From assembly GCF_017348835.2 (NCBI RefSeq), contig NZ_CP071375.1: 64,000 bases of DNA; one strand, written 5' to 3'. The notes below the pieces were generated by a model. The model did no database searches and had not been told where the DNA came from. It was given only the letters and a program-made list of their open reading frames with translations. Origin of the DNA: Escherichia coli (lineage in GTDB: Bacteria; Pseudomonadota; Gammaproteobacteria; Enterobacterales; Enterobacteriaceae). Shown one piece after another: positions 4,011 to 64,000 of the stretch. Position 1 is the stretch's first letter; every line of letters begins with the position of its first letter. The translations under genes were made by a program, and so were the position numbers.

Positions 4011-5177
4011 ATGATCGAACACTATATTCGAGGGTTTGAGGAAGAACTGCGTGAGATCCGCCATCAGATCCACGAAAACCCGGAGCTGGGATTACAGGAA
4101 TTTAAAACCAGTGCTTTGGTAGCGGAAAAGCTGCGCCAGTGGGGTTATGAGGTTGAGCAAGGGCTGGCGACAACCGGCGTGGTAGCCACGTTAAAAGTGG
4201 GCGACGGAGAGAAAAGTATTGGCCTGCGGGCGGATATGGATGCGTTGCCGATTTATGAAAATAGTGGCAAGCCCTGGGCCAGTAAACATCCTGGTTTAAT
4301 GCACGCCTGCGGGCATGACGGGCATACCACCATACTGCTGGGGGCCGCGCGTTATTTTGCCGAAACCCGCCGTTTTAACGGCACGTTACGTCTTATCTTC
4401 CAGCCTGCGGAAGAGATGATTAACGGCGGTGAGATCATGGTTAAAGAGGGGCTTTTTGATCGTTTCCCCTGCGATGTCATTTTCGGCATGCATAACATGC
4501 CCGGTCTGCCGGTGGGTAAGTTTTATTTCCAGCCAGGGGCACTGATGGCGTCAATGGATCAGTTCCATATTACGGTTCGTGGTTGTGGCGGACACGGTGC
4601 GATCCCGCACAAAGCCATCGATCCGGTGCTGGTTGCCGCACATATCACTACCGCATTACAAAGCATTGTGTCGCGCAATGTCGATCCGCTGGAAGCGGCG
4701 GTAATTACCGTTGGCAGCATTGTTGCAGGGGAGGCGGCTAACGTCATTCCTGACAGTGCTGAGATGAAAATCAGCGTCCGCTCTCTTAGCCGCGATACCC
4801 GACAACTTCTTCTGACCCGTATTCCTGCTTTGGCACAGGCCCAGGCTGCCAGCTTTGGTGCTACGGCTGAGGTTACGCATGTTAACGGTACACCGGTATT
4901 AGTGAATGACGAGGAGATGGCGCGCTTCGCCTGGCAGGTGGCGTGTAAAACGTTTGGTGAAGATCGGGCCGAGTTTGGCATCAAGCCCCTGATGGGCAGT
5001 GAGGATTTCTCTTTCATGCTGGAAGCCCAACCCAAAGGCGGTTTCCTGTTATTCGGTAATGGCGATGTCGGGGAGGGTTCCTGCATGGTGCATAACCCGG
5101 GTTACGACTTCAACGATGCAAGTCTGGTCCCGGCAAGCAGCTACTGGGGCGCACTGGTAGAAGCCTGGCTGCAATAA
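4011..5177 (+). CDS. M20/M20D-family amidohydrolase (hippurate hydrolase / N-acyl-amino-acid amidohydrolase-like), 388 aa
   Basis: Metal-ligand context HACGHDGHT and overall M20D-like sequence; AT-rich upstream region; substrate cannot be told from sequence. Confidence 0.8.
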   Translation: MIEHYIRGFEEELREIRHQIHENPELGLQEFKTSALVAEKLRQWGYEVEQGLATTGVVATLKVGDGEKSIGLRADMDALPIYENSGKPWASKHPGLMHACGHDGHTTILLGAARYFAETRRFNGTLRLIFQPAEEMINGGEIMVKEGLFDRFPCDVIFGMHNMPGLPVGKFYFQPGALMASMDQFHITVRGCGGHGAIPHKAIDPVLVAAHITTALQSIVSRNVDPLEAAVITVGSIVAGEAANVIPDSAEMKISVRSLSRDTRQLLLTRIPALAQAQAASFGATAEVTHVNGTPVLVNDEEMARFAWQVACKTFGEDRAEFGIKPLMGSEDFSFMLEAQPKGGFLLFGNGDVGEGSCMVHNPGYDFNDASLVPASSYWGALVEAWLQ

Positions 5178-5220: not shown

Positions 5221-6541
5221 ATGACGGCGATCGTAAATGAAAGCGTGAGTGTGAAGAAAAAGCCTAGTGGCAGGCGGGTGATTTTTGCTTCGGCGTTTGG
5301 CAATGCGCTCGAATTTTTTGATTTTGGCGTTTACAACTTTTTTGTGGTCTATATCAGTACGCTATTTTTCCCGCCCAGCGCTGATCACAATGTCGCGCTG
5401 TTACTGGCATTTGCAACGTTTGGCGTGAGTTTTTTTATGCGCCCGCTTGGTGGAATTATCGTCGGGGCCTGGGCCGATCGTTTCGGACGCAAACCCGCGA
5501 TGGTGTTCACCATTGCCCTGATGAGCCTCGGCACGTTGATGATTGGCATTGCGCCGACGTATGAAACGGCGGGCTATTGGGGAACCGCGACGCTGGTGCT
5601 AGCGCGTCTAATTCAGGGCGTTGCGGCAGGAGGCGAAGTCGGTGCCTCAATGTCTTTGTTGGTTGAATCAGCTCCGGCAAATCGTCGCGGCTTTTACAGC
5701 AGTTGGTCACTGGCGACTCAAGGCCTGGCAACAACCTTTGGTGGTGTTGTCGCTTTAGGTTTAAGTGCATGGCTGCCCTTTGCGACAGGTTCAGAAACCG
5801 TAATGGCTGAATGGGGCTGGCGTGTGCCATTTTTTATTGGCGTGTTATTAGCACCTATCGGTTGCTGGTTGCGTCTGAGCCTGGAAAATGACGTGCCTGA
5901 GCCTGCCTGTGCGCAATAAAAAAGCTGCTACCAGCGAAAGCGCGTTTTCTCTGCTCCTGCAACATAAGGCGACTATCGTTAATGGCGTTTTACTCGCTAT
6001 TGGTAGCACGGTCGCAACCTATATCTCCCTCTTTTATTACGGCACCTGGGCGGCGAAGTATCTGGCGATGCCTCAACATTATTCTCATGCAGCGATGTTA
6101 CTGGCGGGCGTTATTACGTTTGTGGGTGCGCTGCTTGTGGGGATGTTGTGCGATTCGGTCGGGCGTAAAAAGCTGATTTTAATCTCCCGTGTGATGGTGC
6201 TGATCTGTAGCTGGCCGTCATTCTGGCTGTTGGTGAATTACCCAAGCCCAGGCATGTTGCTGACGGTGGTTTTCGTGATGGTCAGCTTTACCACGCTTGG
6301 CGGTGTGCCAGTGATGTTGTTGATCTCTGAACTGTTGCCGAAACGGATTCGGGCATTGGGTTTTGCGCTGGTTTATAGCATTGGTGTGGCAATCTTTGGC
6401 GGTTTTGCTCAATATTTCGCTACGCAATCCATCGTGTTGCTGGATAGTTTGACGGCTCCGGCGTGGTATTTGGGTGGAGGCACGTTGCTGTCGATGTTGG
6501 CGTTGTTGTACGTAAAAGAACCGGCCAAAGAATTGCAGTAA
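5221..6541 (+). pseudogene. MHS-family MFS transporter (ShiA/KgtP/ProP-like) interrupted by a frameshift; two ORFs 5221-5919 and 5888-6541
   Basis: N-terminal ORF has MFS motifs (RPLGGIIVGAWADRFGRK, ARLIQGVAAGGEVG); C-terminal ORF continues the 12-TM architecture in the +1 frame; the frames overlap at 5888-5919 next to an A6 run. Confidence 0.7.
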
Positions 6542-6647
6542 ATATGTTTTATTGCGTTACCGTTCATTCACAATACTGGAGCAATCCAGTATGTTCATTC
6601 TCTGGTATAGTGCCAGCAGTACTTTTGGCAAGGATTCAGACATCGTG

Positions 6648-7295
6648 ATGGGCGTAAGAGCGCAACAAAAAGAAAAAACCCGCCGTTCGCTGGTGGAAGC
6701 CGCATTTAGCCAATTAAGTGCTGAACGCAGCTTCGCCAGCCTGAGTTTGCGTGAAGTGGCGCGTGAAGCGGGCATTGCTCCCACCTCTTTTTATCGACAT
6801 TTCCGCGACGTAGACGAACTGGGTCTGACCATGGTTGATGAGAGCGGTTTAATGCTACGCCAACTCATGCGCCAGGCGCGTCAGCGTATCGCCAAAGGCG
6901 GGAGTGTGATCCGCACCTCGGTCTCCACATTTATGGAGTTCATCGGTAATAATCCTAACGCCTTCCGGTTATTATTGCGGGAACGCTCCGGCACCTCCGC
7001 TGCGTTTCGTGCCGCCGTTGCGCGTGAAATTCAGCACTTCATTGCGGAACTTGCGGACTATCTGGAACTCGAAAACCATATGCCGCGTGCGTTTACTGAA
7101 GCGCAAGCCGAAGCAATGGTGACAATTGTCTTCAGTGCGGGTGCCGAGGCGTTGGACGTCGGCGTTGAACAACGTCGGCAATTAGAAGAGCGACTGGTAC
7201 TGCAACTGCGAATGATTTCGAAAGGGGCTTATTACTGGTATCGCCGTGAACAAGAGAAAACCGCAATTATTCCGGGAAATGTGAAGGACGAGTAA
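6648..7295 (+). CDS. fabR: TetR-family fatty-acid biosynthesis repressor FabR (215 aa; a 234-aa form would start at 6591)
   Basis: Protein [20 protein letters not shown]... with TetR HTH; ORF-track start 6552 is an upstream extension. Confidence 0.9.
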
Positions 7296-35097: not shown

Positions 35098-35627
35098 ATG
35101 AAACAGGAAGTGGAAAAGTGGCGACCTTTTGGACATCCGGATGGTGATATTCGTGATTTATCATTTCTTGATGCTCATCAGGCTGTCTACGTTCAGCATC
35201 ATGAGGGCTAGAGTATCGCTTTTGGGTTACCTACTCTCTTCACTGCTTCACAAAAGATTATGAACATCAGACGAACGAAGAAAAACAATCGTTAATGTAC
35301 CACGCGCCTAAAGAATCTCGTCCCTTCTGCCAGCACCGTTATAACTTAGCGCGCACACACTTAAAAAGAACCATTTTGGCGCTGCCAGAAAGCAATGTTA
35401 TTCATGCCGGGTATGGTAGCTATGCCGTGATTGAGGTGGACTTAGACGGAGGAGACAAGGCATTTTACTTTGTTGCGTTCAGGGCTTTCAGGGAAAAGAA
35501 AAAACTCCGTTTGCATGTAACTAGCGCTTACCCCATTTCTGAAAAACAGAAAGGTAAATCAGTGAAATTTTTCACCATTGCCTACAATTTATTGAGAAAT
35601 AAGCAGCTTCCTCAGCCCTCAAAATAA
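35098..35627 (+). pseudogene. yjaZ: htrC/yjaZ-like gene disrupted by a frameshift (N-terminal 37 codons 35098-35211; remainder open in another frame 35205-35627)
   Basis: ATG at 35098 with Shine-Dalgarno AAGGA stops at TAG 35209-35211 after 37 codons; a 140-codon frame continues to 35627 from 35205 with no start codon until 35295. Confidence 0.65.
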
Positions 35628-35628
35628 C

Positions 35629-35653
35629 AAAACCCACCTTAAGGTGGGTTTCG
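35629..35653 (+). terminator. putative terminator hairpin after yjaZ
   Basis: Palindrome CCCACCTT/AAGGTGGG followed by a short T-run. Confidence 0.45.
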
Positions 35654-35884
35654 CCAGAGATAATTCTCTGGTATTCAGAACGCCATTACCGGACTTTGCC
35701 TTGACCTTGCGAGAATCGCAGGTTGCGGGATGTCTGAATTTCTTCAGTCTGCTGCATCCTGGAAGATGAGAACATGTGTTCTTATTTTCGTCTCTATCAT
35801 AGTTGAGTATTTACTCTCTTACAATCAGATCTCTTTCATTGCTCAACAGGCGATGGCTTCAGACTTTGCATTACGGAATTTTTA

Positions 35885-54963: not shown

Positions 54964-55048
54964 CCTTAAAGAAGCGTTCTTTGTAGTGCTCACACAGATT
55001 GTCTGATAGAAAGTGAAAAGCAAGGCGTCTTGCGAAGCAGACTGATAC

Positions 55049-55124
55049 GTCCCCTTCGTCTAGAGGCCCAGGACACCGCCCTTTCACGGCGGTAACAGGG
55101 GTTCGAATCCCCTAGGGGACGCCA
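55049..55124 (+). tRNA. gltV: tRNA-Glu in the 16S-23S spacer
   Basis: Same 76-nt tRNA-Glu sequence as at 13849-13924. Confidence 0.95.
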
Positions 55125-55308
55125 CTTGCTGGTTTGTGAGTGAAAGTCACCTGCCTTGATATCTCAAAACTCATCTTCGGGTGATGTTTGAGATATTTGC
55201 TCTTTAAAAATCTGGATCAAGCTGAAAATTGAAACACTGAACAATGAAAGTTGTTCGTGAGTCTCTCAAATTTTCGCAACTCTGAAGTGAAACATCTTCG
55301 GGTTGTGA

Positions 55309-60516: not shown

Positions 60517-61704
60517 TCAGGCCATCCGACAAGCTACTGGTGAATAATCGAAGGCTTTATAGGTCAGAACAAACTCTTTATGCCCCAGCCGCTCTGCGCT
60601 ACAAAGTTTACCGCTGCTGACTTCCTCAATGCAGTGCAACATATCGCTTGCGACATCATCAAGCGATGCACCTTCACTGATAATCCTGCCAGCATTAATA
60701 TCCATATCATCCGCCATATTGGCCCAGGTTTGTGGGTTGTTACAGACTTTAATCACTGGCGCAATTACGGAGCCGATCACTGAACCTCGTCCGGTGGTAA
60801 ACAAAATCATATGACATCCGGTAGCGATAAGTTCCATCGCTTCTGATGAGTCATTGATGTTGGGATAGCCGAAACGCGCTTCGCCGTCGGGAACCACATC
60901 CATCAGATACAGACCAGGGTAAGGGGCATGTTCTGTCGGGAGTAAAACGCCCTGAATAGGGCTATCGCCTGACTTTGTATAGGCACCCAGCGATTTTTCT
61001 TCTTGCGTGGTTAACCCGCCGACGGCGTTACCGTTAGAAAAACTGCCTAAACCCATTGTCGCGTAATAGCGTTTAGCTTTATCCATTGCTGCATCAATCG
61101 CCTCTCTGGCCGCAGGTGTCGCCGCTCGCGCCATCATGTGGCCTTCACAACCAATCAACTCGCCGCTCTCTTCAAAAATGCAGGTCGCGCCTTGTGCGAG
61201 GAGTCGATCAAACGCGCGACCTACGGCAGGATTGCCCGTAATGCCGCTGGTGCCGTCGGAACCGCCGCAAATCGTACCAATAACTAAATCACTGAACGCA
61301 ATCGGGCGAACCGCCACCTGCTTAATTTGCGCCAGCATCTCTGTGACACAAACTTTGCCCCGTTTGATGGTTTCTGTAGTTCCCTTATTTTCCTGGATAA
61401 CCAGCTTATGGCATGGGCGACCACTGGCGATGACATCTTCATAAAGTTTATCGCGATCAAAGTTTTCGCAGCCGAGGGCGATAATCAACACCGCACCAAC
61501 ATTGGGATGGGTCGCCAGTCCTTTTACCAGTCGGTAGCCGTAGTCCGTGGGGTAACAGCCGGAAAAACCAAAATACTGCACGTCTTCATTTGTGAAAGAC
61601 TCAGCGATCGCTTTGGCAACGTGGCTGGCGCATTCCACCATAAAGATGACTTGTACGCTGTTACGTATACCGACTCTGCCATCTTGTCTCATGTAACCCT
61701 GCAT
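60517..61704 (-). CDS. UxaA/GarD-family sugar-acid dehydratase, large catalytic subunit (395 aa)
   Basis: Resembles the C-terminal catalytic domain of altronate/galactarate dehydratases; start codon overlaps the stop of the upstream SAF-domain ORF. Confidence 0.75.
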   Translation of the reverse strand: MQGYMRQDGRVGIRNSVQVIFMVECASHVAKAIAESFTNEDVQYFGFSGCYPTDYGYRLVKGLATHPNVGAVLIIALGCENFDRDKLYEDVIASGRPCHKLVIQENKGTTETIKRGKVCVTEMLAQIKQVAVRPIAFSDLVIGTICGGSDGTSGITGNPAVGRAFDRLLAQGATCIFEESGELIGCEGHMMARAATPAAREAIDAAMDKAKRYYATMGLGSFSNGNAVGGLTTQEEKSLGAYTKSGDSPIQGVLLPTEHAPYPGLYLMDVVPDGEARFGYPNINDSSEAMELIATGCHMILFTTGRGSVIGSVIAPVIKVCNNPQTWANMADDMDINAGRIISEGASLDDVASDMLHCIEEVSSGKLCSAERLGHKEFVLTYKAFDYSPVACRMA

Positions 61705-62024
61705 CAGGCCTCTCCTGCTGGCTCATAGCCCGCATTATCATGGTGGAATACGGCGATATAATCGCTGTTCAGGTTATGGGAATGGATATGCTCGCCAATA
61801 GGGATAGCCTGACTGGCAGAGCCAATGCCTGCGCCATATTTACGAACTTTATCGCCCTGACATAACGTTTCGATTGCCAGCTTATGCCCAAGAGCAACGT
61901 AGCTTTGTGCCACAAATTCACCACCGTCATAGTGGACGCGATCGCCTTGCTGAATATCTTCCAGGGCGACAACGCAGTTATCGAGTTTGTGTAATAGCAG
62001 AGCGCGTTTATTCATGTTCACCAA
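61704..62024 (-). CDS. UxaA/GarD-family dehydratase small subunit, SAF-domain protein (106 aa)
   Basis: 106-aa ORF resembling the N-terminal SAF domain of UxaA-family dehydratases, immediately upstream of and coupled to the large subunit. Confidence 0.65.
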   Translation of the reverse strand: MVNMNKRALLLHKLDNCVVALEDIQQGDRVHYDGGEFVAQSYVALGHKLAIETLCQGDKVRKYGAGIGSASQAIPIGEHIHSHNLNSDYIAVFHHDNAGYEPAGEA

Positions 62025-62071
62025 CTCTCCTGGTTGTGGGGATACAGGCGACCCACAGGCCGCCCGACTGT

Positions 62072-62836
62072 TTAGAAACCGATCAGCGCGCCGCCATCGA
62101 CAATCAGAACCTGACCGCTAACGAAACCGGCAGCATCAGAAGCCAGATAGGTTGCAGCCCAGCCGATATCTTCTGGTTTGCCGAATTTTTTCATCGGTGT
62201 ACGACCAAGAATTTTATTTTTACGCTCATCGTCACCCTCAATGGCTTTGCGCAGCATTGGCGTATCAATCCAGCCCGGAGCGACGCCGTTAACGCGGATC
62301 CCTGCGCCAGAAAGTTCGGTTGCCATGCCATGAATCAGCCCGAGGTAGGCAGACTTCGCGGCAGCATAGCCGGTGACATAAGGTTGACCGAGGAACGATG
62401 TCATTGAGGCGGTAAAAAGCACACAGGCATTGCCATGCTGTTTCATATGAGGGACCAGCGAGCGAGTCAGAGCGAACGCGCCAACGACATGGACATCAAG
62501 AACCGATTCAAAATCAGCGACGCTCATCTCTTCGATCGGTTTTTTACAGTGATTTCCGGCGTTATTGACCAGAATATCGATCTGATTATGCTGGCTCAGA
62601 AGGCCGTCTACCCAACTTTCCGTCTCGTCAGTGTGGGCCACATTGAACTGGCTCCAGGATGCATTTGGCCCCAGCGACTCGGCAGCGTTTTTGGCAGCTT
62701 CGCCATTGAGATCGGCAATGATGACTTTTGCGCCACAGGCGATCATGCATTTAGCCATTGCATAGCCCAGGCCACTGGCGGAACCGGTGATCAGGGCAGT
62801 TTTATTTTCCAGTGAAAAGGGGTTATTCATCGTCAT
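62072..62836 (-). CDS. short-chain dehydrogenase/reductase (gluconate 5-dehydrogenase / KduD-like), 254 aa
   Basis: Rossmann motif TGSASGLGYA, NNAG motif, catalytic YAAAK. Confidence 0.85.
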   Translation of the reverse strand: MTMNNPFSLENKTALITGSASGLGYAMAKCMIACGAKVIIADLNGEAAKNAAESLGPNASWSQFNVAHTDETESWVDGLLSQHNQIDILVNNAGNHCKKPIEEMSVADFESVLDVHVVGAFALTRSLVPHMKQHGNACVLFTASMTSFLGQPYVTGYAAAKSAYLGLIHGMATELSGAGIRVNGVAPGWIDTPMLRKAIEGDDERKNKILGRTPMKKFGKPEDIGWAATYLASDAAGFVSGQVLIVDGGALIGF

Positions 62837-62861
62837 GATTTTTTTCTCGTCAGATAAAGGG

Positions 62862-63875
62862 TTAGAGGTCGATTAAAATTTTGGTGAATGCGCCGGGATC
62901 GGCGGCCCAGTCGCTGAACGCCCGATCGGCAGTATCAATCGGGTAGTGCGCGGAAATAATTAGCTCAATGGGGTAGCACTGCTTTTCCATTAAAGAGAGA
63001 ACTGCTCTGAAATCGGCAACGGTGGCGTTGCGGGAACCACGGATATCCAGCTCTTTCATGAGGAAGCGCGCGCTCTCATAATTCACCGGTTTTTTCGCAT
63101 AGCCGACGTACACCACGCGCCCGCAGAAGGCAGCCAGCTCGACTGCCTGCTCGATGGTTTTATCCAGGCCAATGGCTTCAATCACCACCGCAGGACCGCG
63201 GTCTTCGTTCAGTTTCGCCAGGATCTCAGCAACATTTTCGCGTGCGCTGTTGATATACCTTTCGGCACCACATGCCTTCGCTACCGCCTGCTTACGATCG
63301 TCGATATCAATGGCTACCACGCGACCGCCCATCGCGTTAGCTGCTGCAATAGCGCCAAGACCAATCACGCCGCAGCCCATAACGACGACCCATTCGCCAA
63401 CATTGATTTGCGCCCGGCGCGCAGCGTGAAGACCAACGGCTAATGGTTCGACTAACGCCAGTTCGTCACTGGAAAGGGAATTACAGACAATGACTTTATT
63501 GGCCGGAATAGACAGCAGCGGCACCATACCGCCCTGGCGCTGAACGCCAAGAGTCTGGTTGTTTTTACAGGCATTCGGGCGACCGCTCAGACAGGAACTG
63601 CAATGACCGCATTCGGTACAGGGCAGAACAACAACACGATCGCCTTCCAGAATATGTTTAACCTGGCTGCCTGTTTGCAGGATCTTGCCGCCGATTTCAT
63701 GACCGGGAATGCAAGGATACTGCGTGAGGGGATTTAGCCCGCGCCAGGTATTTAAATCTGAACCGCATAAACCAACTCGTTCAACACGAATTAATACATG
63801 GTCGGCTGGGCAATCAGGTTCGGCGATATCAATAAATCGCGTTACGGAACCTTTATCAATGGCTAACGCTTTCAT
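62862..63875 (-). CDS. Zn-dependent medium-chain dehydrogenase (sorbitol / L-idonate dehydrogenase-like), about 337 aa
   Basis: Catalytic Zn ligands (GLCGSDL...GHEIGG) and structural Zn cysteines (CTECGHCSSC); likely start MKALAIDKG at 63875, ORF-track start 63956 is an extension. Confidence 0.82.
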   Translation of the reverse strand: MKALAIDKGSVTRFIDIAEPDCPADHVLIRVERVGLCGSDLNTWRGLNPLTQYPCIPGHEIGGKILQTGSQVKHILEGDRVVVLPCTECGHCSSCLSGRPNACKNNQTLGVQRQGGMVPLLSIPANKVIVCNSLSSDELALVEPLAVGLHAARRAQINVGEWVVVMGCGVIGLGAIAAANAMGGRVVAIDIDDRKQAVAKACGAERYINSARENVAEILAKLNEDRGPAVVIEAIGLDKTIEQAVELAAFCGRVVYVGYAKKPVNYESARFLMKELDIRGSRNATVADFRAVLSLMEKQCYPIELIISAHYPIDTADRAFSDWAADPGAFTKILIDL

Positions 63876-63888
63876 ATAAAAACCTTTT

Positions 63889-64000
63889 TTAAAGTGAATC
63901 GGATGAAATAACAGAATCGGTATTTTTAATATTTCTCTTAATAGGTTTAACGCCAAAGGCTACCCCAAGAGCGCCGATTACCCCAATGGCACCCGCAAGA
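63889..64000 (-). CDS. 3' end (last 36 codons) of a membrane protein, probably the operon's transporter; 5' end outside the window
   Basis: Minus-strand frame open to the window edge, ending ...LAGAIGVIGALGVAFGVKPIKRNIKNTDSVISSDSL-stop, 14 nt upstream of the dehydrogenase start. Confidence 0.5.
   Translation of the reverse strand, partial: LAGAIGVIGALGVAFGVKPIKRNIKNTDSVISSDSL

What the first reader, a model, noticed from the sequence alone, without database searches (positions are those of the whole stretch)
5885..5925. Frameshift splitting the MHS transporter beside an A6 run
The transporter reads through 5221-5919 in one frame and resumes in the +1 frame from 5888 to 6541; the two halves together make a normal-length 12-TM MHS protein. 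The frames overlap within GCCTGAGCCTGCCTGTGCGCAATAAAAAAGC, which contains a short direct repeat and a homopolymeric A6 tract. This could be true pseudogenisation, a slippage-prone switch, or a sequencing/assembly indel.
Basis: seen in the sequence. Interest (0 to 1): 0.4.

Follow-up and report, generated by a model that had tools for sequence, protein, structure and literature searches.

The report
Private 4-bp duplication breaks accessory transporter
An E. coli accessory membrane-transporter gene is cut into two halves by a 4-base tandem duplication found in no other sequenced strain, which is most likely an ordinary recent loss-of-function mutation or, less likely, an assembly error.

Summary
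ORFs 5221-5919 and 5888-6541 are the N- and C-halves of one MFS (MHS-like) transporter.

The cause is not the A6 run. It is a 4-bp tandem duplication (GCCT/CCTG) within 5901-5909. Deleting 4 nt restores, residue for residue, the 438-aa protein of the nearest genome, E. coli PE164. The A6 run (5918-5923) is identical in the intact alleles that carry it.

The duplication is the only indel outside the rRNA operons across 64 kb compared with PE164. It is absent from all 5,426 complete E. coli genomes and from a 15-billion-protein collection.

The gene is half of a two-gene accessory cassette (M20 aminoacylase + transporter). It is present in 1,507 of 5,426 genomes and deleted in about 3,800, including K-12. 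Where present it is almost always intact.

The break falls in the disordered linker between TM6 and TM7. ORF1 therefore carries native residues 1-228 and ORF2 carries 229-438.

Best reading: a recent, strain-private frameshift (a nascent pseudogene). An assembly artefact cannot be excluded without reads. Phase variation, recoding and "two separate genes" are not supported. A functional two-piece transporter is a low-probability possibility. Interest is low.

The parts
4011..5177 (+). Intact M20 aminoacylase gene (388 aa), the upstream partner of the transporter in a two-gene cassette
   Evidence: Pfam Peptidase_M20 + M20_dimer. NCBIfam TIGR01891 amidohydrolase scores 359 bits, above its cutoff of 153.75. 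The closest solved structures are YxeP, the IAA-amino acid hydrolase ILL2 and N-acyl-glutamine aminoacylase. The sequence is identical to PE164. The same M20-MFS pair occurs in Serratia and Limnobaculum at other loci.
5221..5919 (+). ORF1: N-terminal half of the transporter (native residues 1-228, TM1-6) followed by four out-of-frame residues (ACAQ) and a stop
   Evidence: An SD-like AAGGA lies upstream of the ATG (-5.4 kcal/mol).
5901..5909 (+). The lesion: GCCTGCCTG, two tandem copies of a 4-nt unit where intact alleles have one (GCCTG). The 4 extra bases cannot be placed more precisely within this tract.
   Evidence: Alignment to PE164 and 06-00048. Whole-window comparison with PE164. Multi-allele alignment.
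5917..5919 (+). Premature TAA stop of ORF1, created by the frame change. It uses the T before the A6 run and the first two A's of the run.
5918..5923 (+). A6 run: not the site of the lesion, and the same length as in the intact alleles that carry it
   Evidence: All nine homopolymers of 5 nt or more in the gene are identical to PE164.
5888..6541 (+). ORF2: seven out-of-frame residues (MTCLSLP) followed by native residues 229-438 (TM7-12). The ATG at 5888 is a fortuitous out-of-frame ATG inside the codons GAA-AAT-GAC.
   Evidence: The SD is weak (-3.3 kcal/mol; GGA lies only 2 nt from the ATG). A TGA stop lies 4 codons upstream in that frame.
6507..6541 (+). The last 35 nt of the transporter CDS. 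This is the only part of the cassette retained in K-12-type genomes (a deletion scar).
6567..6595 (+). Promoter-like site upstream of fabR, in sequence shared with K-12. It suggests fabR does not depend on read-through from the broken gene.
   Evidence: (a consensus match only).
6645..7295 (+). fabR (downstream neighbour), intact. It has one synonymous difference from PE164 at 6797.

Best explanation
The window is an E. coli chromosome segment (argH-oxyR-sthA ... fabR-yijD-trmA-btuB ...) from a strain nearly clonal with the pig isolate PE164. Between sthA and fabR it carries an accessory two-gene cassette: an M20 N-acyl-amino-acid amidohydrolase and an MHS-like MFS transporter.

In this strain alone, a 4-bp tandem duplication (GCCTG to GCCTGCCTG, 5901-5909) shifted the transporter's reading frame at codon 228/229. 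That position is in the disordered cytoplasmic linker between TM6 and TM7. Translation from the native start ends four codons later at TAA 5917-5919, giving a six-helix N-domain fragment.

The C-domain is left without a proper ribosome-binding site. It is inferred to be made poorly or not at all, and lone MFS half-domains are unstable in vivo. The inferred consequence is loss of uptake of the cassette's unknown substrate. By gene context that substrate is probably an anionic N-acyl amino acid, which the M20 enzyme would then hydrolyse.

The event is very recent, because there is no other change in the gene and the M20 partner is intact. It affects a cassette that most E. coli have already lost.

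Shown: the duplication, its uniqueness, the position of the break, and the intactness of orthologues. Inferred: that the duplication is a real mutation rather than an assembly error, the loss of function, and the substrate class.
For: - A 4-nt insertion relative to intact alleles, while the A6 run is unchanged.
- Removing 4 nt restores 100% identity to the 438-aa WP_053884356.1.
- Over 64 kb the window differs from PE164 by 9 substitutions, differences in the rRNA operons, and this single indel outside the rRNA operons. The two 1-nt indels in 23S rRNA are peculiarities of one PE164 copy, not of the window. The assembly is therefore not indel-noisy, and a 4-bp tandem duplication is not a typical homopolymer-type sequencing error.
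- The duplication is absent from 5,426 complete E. coli genomes. The best identity over the junction is 96.4%, which corresponds to the 4 gaps. Neither ORF product is present in the 15-billion-protein collection.
- Orthologues are single ORFs of 436-449 aa.
- The break lies in the linker. AlphaFold (pTM 0.81) shows no helix at residues 224-239 and pLDDT below 50 at 226-236. This is the least conserved 15-aa window of the protein apart from the N-terminus and the hydropathy minimum.
- The cassette is dispensable. It is full-length in 1,507 of 5,426 genomes. About 3,837 genomes, including K-12, keep only the last ~35 nt.
- The ORF2 start context is weak.
- Termination-reinitiation in E. coli needs very short overlaps or distances (PMC10666635).
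- LacY and XylE half-domains are unstable when expressed alone in vivo (PMC7272624).
Against: - No read data are available, so an assembly or consensus artefact cannot be excluded. Singleton frameshifts confirmed by BLASTp were judged mostly sequencing errors in older genomes (PMC3711429).
- Loss of function is inferred, not measured.
- ORF1 and ORF2 together encode every native residue. ORF2 has an ATG 29 nt upstream of the ORF1 stop, so residual two-piece function is not excluded.
- Where the gene is present it is nearly always kept at full length: 60 of 60 evenly sampled genomes show no net indel. This suggests the gene is useful where retained, and makes a fixed loss somewhat less expected.
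Confidence: 0.66

Rival explanations
1. Sequencing or assembly artefact: the strain's gene is actually intact and the extra GCCT is a consensus error.
For: The allele is a singleton. It is present in 0 of 5,426 genomes, and the ORF products are absent from the 15-billion-protein collection. There is no second mutation in the gene. The literature cautions that BLASTp-validated singleton frameshifts are often errors (PMC3711429). Noisy public contigs do show spurious lesions in this same stretch, for example the L016 contig-end inverted junction and P0121.
Against: A 4-bp tandem duplication is not the usual error type, which is a 1-nt homopolymer indel. All homopolymers in the gene match PE164. 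The only other small indels against PE164 are in PE164's own 23S copy. The window therefore looks like a clean assembly.
Confidence: 0.2
2. The split gene is still functional. The N6 and C6 halves are both made, with ORF2 translated from ATG 5888 (or GTG 5909) by weak independent initiation or reinitiation. They then assemble into a working two-chain transporter, as engineered LacY halves do.
For: The break is exactly in the disordered inter-domain linker. ORF1 plus ORF2 contain all 438 native residues. An in-frame ATG lies 13 nt before the duplication, in an A-rich region that is not strongly structured. LacY expressed in two segments is functional (Bibi & Kaback 1990, cited). Several other independent lesions fall in the same linker in other Escherichia.
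Against: There is no usable SD: GGA sits 2 nt from the ATG and pairs at -3.3 kcal/mol, against -5.4 for the native start. The stop lies 29 nt downstream of the candidate start, and coupling collapses at about 20 nt (PMC10666635). The split is not conserved in any lineage: the window and CU42ET-1 lesions are each in one genome, and the contig lesions were each recovered from one contig. The linker clustering comes largely from a length-biased protein cluster.
Confidence: 0.07
3. Slippage-prone ON/OFF switch (phase variation) at the A6 run or the tetranucleotide repeat.
For: Short repeats are present, and a two-copy tandem repeat can in principle revert precisely by slippage. Other strains show small indels nearby: CU42ET-1 has a -2 deletion directly after the A6 run, L018 has a -2 deletion in GCTGCT, and P0121 implies A6 shortened to A4.
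Against: The A6 run keeps the same length in the intact alleles that carry it and is interrupted in the O157 allele. There are only 2 copies of the 4-nt unit and Tandem Repeats Finder finds no array. None of 5,426 genomes share the variant. 60 of 60 evenly sampled genomes show no net indel. The tract is far shorter than known contingency loci (own knowledge).
Confidence: 0.03
4. Programmed ribosomal frameshifting or transcriptional slippage restores the full-length protein.
For: The string A-AAA-AAG (the dnaX-type heptamer) occurs at 5918-5924.
Against: Restoring the frame needs a +1 (or -2) shift before the stop at 5917-5919. The heptamer begins inside and after that stop and would promote a -1 shift. 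The local RNA is no more structured than shuffled sequence (z +1.56). The frameshift is absent from all orthologues, so no recoding signal could have been selected.
Confidence: 0.01

Closest known systems
Ordinary strain-specific frameshift pseudogenes in E. coli (annotated 'frameshifted' by PGAP). An example is the same gene in E. coli O99:H6 CU42ET-1, NZ_CP082773.1 265460-266774.
   Same: A single small indel in an otherwise intact accessory gene. It is private to one genome, and the neighbouring genes are intact.
   Different: The lesion differs: +4 tandem duplication at codon 228/229 here, against a -2 (GC) deletion at codon 234 in CU42ET-1. The two events are independent.
Metabolite:H+ symporter (MHS) family of the MFS, TC 2.A.1.6 (TcuC, CitA, KgtP, ProP, ShiA)
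   Same: The best NCBIfam hit is TIGR00883 (MHS), followed by TcuC, KgtP-like, ProP and ShiA models. The fold has 12 helices in two six-helix domains. MFS motif A (GAWADRFGRK) is present.
   Different: The scores are below every curated cutoff (323.7 against 443.45 for TIGR00883; 286 against 445 for TcuC). The PGAP name 'citrate-proton symporter' and any specific substrate are therefore unsupported. No member of this orthologous group has been characterised, as far as the searches here showed.
Engineered split lactose permease (LacY N6/C6; Bibi & Kaback 1990, PNAS 87:4325)
   Same: The cut lies in the central cytoplasmic loop between TM6 and TM7, leaving complete N and C domains on separate ORFs.
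   Different: In LacY both halves were deliberately given expression signals. Here the C-half has only a fortuitous ATG with no proper SD. Function and expression are untested, and the paper itself was not readable here.
Phase-variable contingency genes with tetranucleotide or homopolymer tracts (e.g. Haemophilus lic1 (CAAT)n; own knowledge)
   Same: The frame is changed by a gain of one 4-nt repeat unit.
   Different: There are only 1 to 2 repeat copies, no polymorphism in the population, and no array.

Membership tests
Major facilitator superfamily (MFS) | Pfam MFS_1 / Sugar_tr match above the gathering score | tested here: met
   ORF1 scores 82.3 bits on Sugar_tr (cutoff 22.3) and 64.4 on MFS_1 (cutoff 33.4). 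ORF2 scores 44.9 bits on Sugar_tr.
Major facilitator superfamily (MFS) | Twelve TM helices in two six-helix domains joined by a cytoplasmic linker | tested here: met
   AlphaFold model of the repaired protein: pTM 0.81, helices throughout, and a non-helical low-confidence linker at residues 224-239. The hydropathy profile agrees.
Major facilitator superfamily (MFS) | Motif A (G-x-x-x-D-R/K-x-G-R-R/K) in the TM2-TM3 loop | tested here: met
   GAWADRFGRK at residues 82-91, read directly from the translation. D86, G89 and R90 are invariant in 22 orthologues.
Metabolite:H+ symporter family (MHS, TIGR00883 / TC 2.A.1.6) | Score at or above the curated cutoff of the family model | tested here: not met
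   TIGR00883 is the best hit, but at 323.7 bits against a cutoff of 443.45. The protein is MHS-like; strict membership is not demonstrated.
Citrate-proton symporter (PGAP product name) / TcuC | Equivalog-level match or demonstrated substrate | tested here: not met
   No equivalog model passes. TcuC subfamily scores 286 bits against a cutoff of 445. The substrate was not tested.
Frameshift pseudogene | Orthologues are single intact ORFs, and the two fragments map colinearly onto one protein | tested here: met
Frameshift pseudogene | The lesion is a real mutation in the organism, not a sequence error | not testable with these tools
   No reads are available. Indirect evidence (a clean assembly and an atypical error type) favours a real mutation.
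Frameshift pseudogene | Loss of function of the product | not testable with these tools
   Inferred from truncation after TM6 and the weak restart context.
Phase-variable simple-sequence contingency locus | A repeat array long enough for frequent slippage, with length polymorphism among strains | tested here: not met
   Tandem Repeats Finder finds no array. A6 has the same length in every sampled allele that carries it. The variant is in 0 of 5,426 genomes, and 60 of 60 sampled genomes show no net indel.
Programmed ribosomal frameshift (dnaX -1 type or prfB +1 type) | A slippery site in the zero frame before the zero-frame stop, the correct shift direction, and conservation of the frameshift among orthologues | tested here: not met
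   The heptamer AAAAAAG lies at and after the stop and has the wrong direction. There is no stimulatory structure. The frameshift is unique to this genome.
Naturally split, functional two-chain MFS transporter (LacY N6/C6-like) | Independent translation signals for the C-half, and conservation of the split | tested here: inconclusive
   An ATG is present, but the SD is weak and badly spaced. The split is not conserved. Expression cannot be tested here.

The most novel reading that the evidence does not exclude
The inter-domain linker of this transporter (codons ~227-239) may be a preferred place for disruptive lesions because cuts there are tolerated. On this reading the N6 and C6 halves are both produced and reassemble into a working transporter. 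The window's allele would then be a naturally occurring, functional split MFS rather than a dead gene.

Independent lesions in the same 13 codons exist in other Escherichia:
- CU42ET-1: -2 at codon 234.
- L018: -2 at codon 235.
- L017: nonsense at codon 238.
- L013: net -11.
- P0138: a 79-aa in-frame deletion starting at codon 237.
Probability: 0.06. Interest if true: 0.45.

Novelty: new member of a known kind. Interest (0 to 1): 0.13.

Why it matters
The practical value is mainly for annotation. The two ORFs should be annotated as one frameshifted gene, not as two transporters. The product name 'citrate-proton symporter' should be treated as unsupported.

Biologically, the window shows an early step in the decay of an accessory M20-aminoacylase/MFS cassette. 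E. coli repeatedly loses this cassette: 72% of complete genomes keep only a 35-nt scar.

If the split halves proved functional, this would be a natural counterpart of the classic LacY N6/C6 experiment. Nothing here shows that.

Tried and rejected
- **A6-run slippage.** Rejected: the A6 run is identical in the intact alleles that carry it.
- **Two independent genes.** Rejected: orthologues are single ORFs of 436-449 aa.
- **Tandem-repeat array.** None found.
- **Recoding.** Wrong direction and position, and no RNA structure.
- **Rfam.** No RNA family at the site.
- **Exact look-up of both ORF products among 15 billion proteins.** Absent.
- **Junction 32-mer in metagenome and species-representative genome collections.** No hits. 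The intact 28-mer of this lineage also has no metagenome hit, so those scans had no power.
- **Literature search for the cassette (sthA / fabR / aminoacylase).** Returned only irrelevant 'fabric' papers.
- **Bibi & Kaback 1990.** Could not be opened, so it is cited only through the reference lists and description.
- **Census of disrupted alleles.** Samples of 60, 17 and 25 genomes were inspected. The protein-cluster route is biased towards fragments of similar length, so I do not claim a mutational hotspot.
- **L016 'break' at codon 237.** This is an inverted junction at a contig end and was treated as an assembly artefact.

Full report
**1. Observation**

The window carries two overlapping + strand ORFs: 5221-5919 (232 aa) and 5888-6541 (217 aa). 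They are in frames offset by +1 and share 32 nt. ORF1 matches Pfam Sugar_tr profile positions 2-191 of 452 (E 4e-23). ORF2 matches positions 243-397 (E 1e-11). These are the two halves of one MFS transporter.

**2. Where the window comes from**

The region is E. coli chromosome, in the order argH, oxyR, sthA, M20 aminoacylase, transporter, fabR, yijD, trmA, btuB, and so on.

The nearest complete genome is the pig isolate PE164 (NZ_CP114128.1). Over all 64,000 nt the two differ by:
- 9 substitutions;
- differences inside the two rRNA operons;
- one indel outside the rRNA operons.

That indel is the lesion under study. The two 1-nt indels in 23S rRNA are peculiar to one PE164 copy. Both window copies and PE164's other copy agree with each other. 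The window is therefore a clean assembly from a near-clonal relative of PE164. The window's own genome is not among the 5,426 complete E. coli genomes searched.

**3. The lesion**

Alignment with intact alleles shows that the window has GCCTGA-GCCT-GCCTG where they have GCCTGA-GCCTG. This is a 4-bp tandem duplication that can be placed anywhere within 5901-5909.

The A6 run (5918-5923) is the same length in PE164, 06-00048, AR_451 and STIN_95. In the O157:H7 allele it is interrupted by synonymous changes (AAGAAG).

Deleting 4 nt and translating gives a 438-aa protein identical to PE164's WP_053884356.1. Reading from the native start, the frame runs ...ENDVPEP, then ACAQ, then TAA at 5917-5919. 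In the other frame an ATG at 5888 gives MTCLSLP followed by VRNKKAATSES... through to the native C-terminus. This ATG is formed by the out-of-frame reading of GAA-AAT-GAC. ORF1 thus holds native residues 1-228 and ORF2 holds 229-438.

**4. Position in the protein**

- An AlphaFold model of the repaired protein (22-sequence alignment, pTM 0.81) has helices throughout, except for a non-helical segment at 224-239 with pLDDT below 50 at 226-236.
- Apart from the N-terminus, this is the least conserved 15-residue window of the protein across 22 orthologues.
- It is also the hydropathy minimum between the sixth and seventh hydrophobic segments.

The cut therefore lies in the cytoplasmic linker between the N and C domains.

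**5. What the gene is**

The intact protein's best NCBIfam hits are:
- the MHS subfamily model TIGR00883, at 323.7 bits against a cutoff of 443.45;
- TcuC, at 286 bits against a cutoff of 445.

No hit reaches its curated cutoff. The protein is MHS-like, and the PGAP name 'citrate-proton symporter' is not supported. MFS motif A (GAWADRFGRK) is present.

The upstream gene (4011-5177) is an intact M20 amidohydrolase. It passes TIGR01891, and its closest solved relatives are YxeP, the IAA-amino-acid hydrolase ILL2 and N-acyl-glutamine aminoacylase.

The M20-MFS pair recurs as an adjacent pair in Serratia marcescens and Limnobaculum at unrelated loci. I infer that the cassette takes up and hydrolyses an anionic N-acyl amino acid. 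This is inference from context only.

**6. Population picture**

- 1,507 of 5,426 complete E. coli genomes carry the full gene.
- About 3,837, including K-12, retain only its last ~35 nt next to fabR. This is a deletion scar.
- Where present, the gene is kept at full length. There was no net indel in 60 of 60 evenly sampled genomes, 17 of 17 and 24 of 25.
- None of the genomes carries the window's duplication. The best junction identity is 96.4%, which corresponds to the four gaps.
- Neither ORF product exists in a 15-billion-protein collection.
- Scans of metagenome and species-representative genome contigs for the junction were negative. The metagenome scan was uninformative because the intact junction of this lineage is also absent there.

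**7. Interpretation**

The simplest account is a very recent, strain-private frameshift, for these reasons:
- there is no second change in the gene;
- the partner gene is intact;
- the closest relative is intact.

A 4-bp tandem duplication with minimal flanking homology, in a locally repetitive GCCTG context, is a normal spontaneous mutation type. It is not the usual signature of sequencing error, which is a 1-nt homopolymer indel. The rest of the window shows no such noise. Without reads, an artefact cannot be excluded, and the literature warns that singleton frameshifts are often errors (PMC3711429). I put a real mutation at about 0.75-0.8 and an artefact at about 0.2.

**8. Consequence**

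The N-half would be made from the native start, which has a good SD (-5.4 kcal/mol). The C-half has only the fortuitous ATG 5888. Its GGA lies 2 nt upstream and pairs at -3.3 kcal/mol. The ORF1 stop lies 29 nt downstream of that ATG.

Experiments in E. coli show that termination-reinitiation falls off steeply, with distances of about 20 nt almost abolishing coupling (PMC10666635). That study varied distances downstream of the stop; long overlaps were not tested. Separate LacY and XylE half-domains are unstable in vivo unless co-expressed (PMC7272624). Loss of function is therefore the likely outcome, but it is inferred.

fabR lies downstream behind a promoter-like site in sequence shared with K-12. 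A polar effect is unlikely.

**9. Rivals**

- *Phase variation.* Only two copies of a 4-nt unit, no array, and no polymorphism.
- *Programmed frameshifting.* The dnaX-like AAAAAAG begins inside and after the ORF1 stop and would shift in the wrong direction. The local RNA is no more stable than shuffles (z +1.56). The frameshift is not conserved.
- *Independent genes.* Refuted by single-ORF orthologues.
- *Functional split transporter.* Not excluded. [quoted passage not shown] However, there is no evidence that the C-half is expressed and the split is not conserved.

**10. An aside that was followed partway**

Other Escherichia carry independent lesions in the same linker:

| Source | Lesion |
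|---|---|
| E. coli O99:H6 CU42ET-1 (complete genome, PGAP 'frameshifted') | 2-bp deletion directly after the A6 run, codon 234; private to that genome |
| Logan contig L018 | GCTG[CT]ACC deletion, codon 235 |
| L017 | GAA to TAA, codon 238 |
| L013 (allele ~90% identical to E. coli alleles) | net -11 nt |
| P0138 | in-frame 79-aa deletion starting at codon 237 |

Lesions elsewhere in the gene also exist. Examples are L014 (-5 nt at codon 270) and N-terminally truncated forms seen on many contigs.

Most of the linker cases were found through one 90%-identity protein cluster, which by construction gathers fragments of similar length. The sample is therefore biased and I do not claim a hotspot. 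Only CU42ET-1 was found without that bias. The window and CU42ET-1 lesions are each private to one genome, and the Logan-contig lesions were each recovered from a single contig. That argues against long-term persistence of split alleles.

**11. Verdict**

This is an ordinary nascent pseudogene in a dispensable accessory cassette, or less likely an assembly error. Interest is low.

Noticed in passing
window 35098-35627 (+): yjaZ (htrC) is also a frameshifted pseudogene: 530 nt, with a stop after 37 codons and the rest of the protein continuing in another frame. The sequence is identical in PE164, where PGAP marks it 'frameshifted'. It is therefore older than the transporter lesion. An sroH RNA match lies just downstream at 35629-35789.
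   Followed up: partly
window 6507-6541; K-12 locus L005 2984-3018: K-12 and about 3,800 other complete E. coli genomes lack the M20-transporter cassette but keep the last ~35 nt of the transporter CDS upstream of fabR, preceded by 73 nt of unrelated sequence. This is a deletion scar. It implies the cassette is ancestral at this site and was lost.
   Followed up: partly
L015 (NZ_CP082773.1 265460-266774), L018, L017, L013, protein P0138: Independent lesions in other Escherichia fall in the same inter-domain linker (codons 227-239): -2 at codon 234, -2 at codon 235, a nonsense mutation at codon 238, a net -11, and a 79-aa in-frame deletion starting at codon 237. This could reflect a hotspot, tolerance of cuts there, or sampling bias. 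It is unresolved.
   Followed up: partly
window 15499 and 16008 (23S rRNA); PE164 4720442-4723342: One 23S copy of PE164 lacks an A (GGGAAAC) and a C (GCCCCGG) relative to both window copies and to PE164's other copy. These are probably homopolymer errors or rrn heterogeneity in PE164, not in the window.
   Followed up: yes
window 54976-55290: The 16S-23S spacer of the second rRNA operon differs from PE164 by a 3-nt indel and a short block of rearranged sequence just upstream of the 23S gene. This looks like spacer heterogeneity between rrn operons or strains.
   Followed up: no
window 5221-6541 (repaired) and RefSeq WP_053884356.1: The PGAP product name 'citrate-proton symporter' is not supported by any NCBIfam model at its curated cutoff. 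The best hits are the generic MHS model and TcuC, both well below their cutoffs.
   Followed up: yes
L006-L009 (Serratia marcescens, Limnobaculum zhutongyuii): The M20 aminoacylase + MFS pair is conserved as an adjacent two-gene unit in other enterobacterial genera, in different genomic neighbourhoods. This suggests a mobile or repeatedly retained functional module with an unknown substrate.
   Followed up: partly
E. coli genome search summaries: Two of the 1,507 full-length copies of the transporter gene are reported on records typed as plasmids rather than chromosomes. These were not inspected.
   Followed up: no
L016 3700-3731 (Logan SRR22225569 contig end): After nt 709 of the gene, the contig continues with the reverse complement of sequence that normally lies ~50-70 nt further downstream. 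This is an inverted junction at a contig end and most likely an assembly artefact. It is a reminder that some public 'disrupted' alleles are not real.
   Followed up: partly
window 60517-64000; PE164 4671509-4676933: The right end of the window carries an accessory cluster next to metA: RraA-family protein, MFS transporter, zinc alcohol dehydrogenase, SDR oxidoreductase and two UxaA-family hydrolase genes. This was seen only through the PE164 annotation and was not examined.
   Followed up: no
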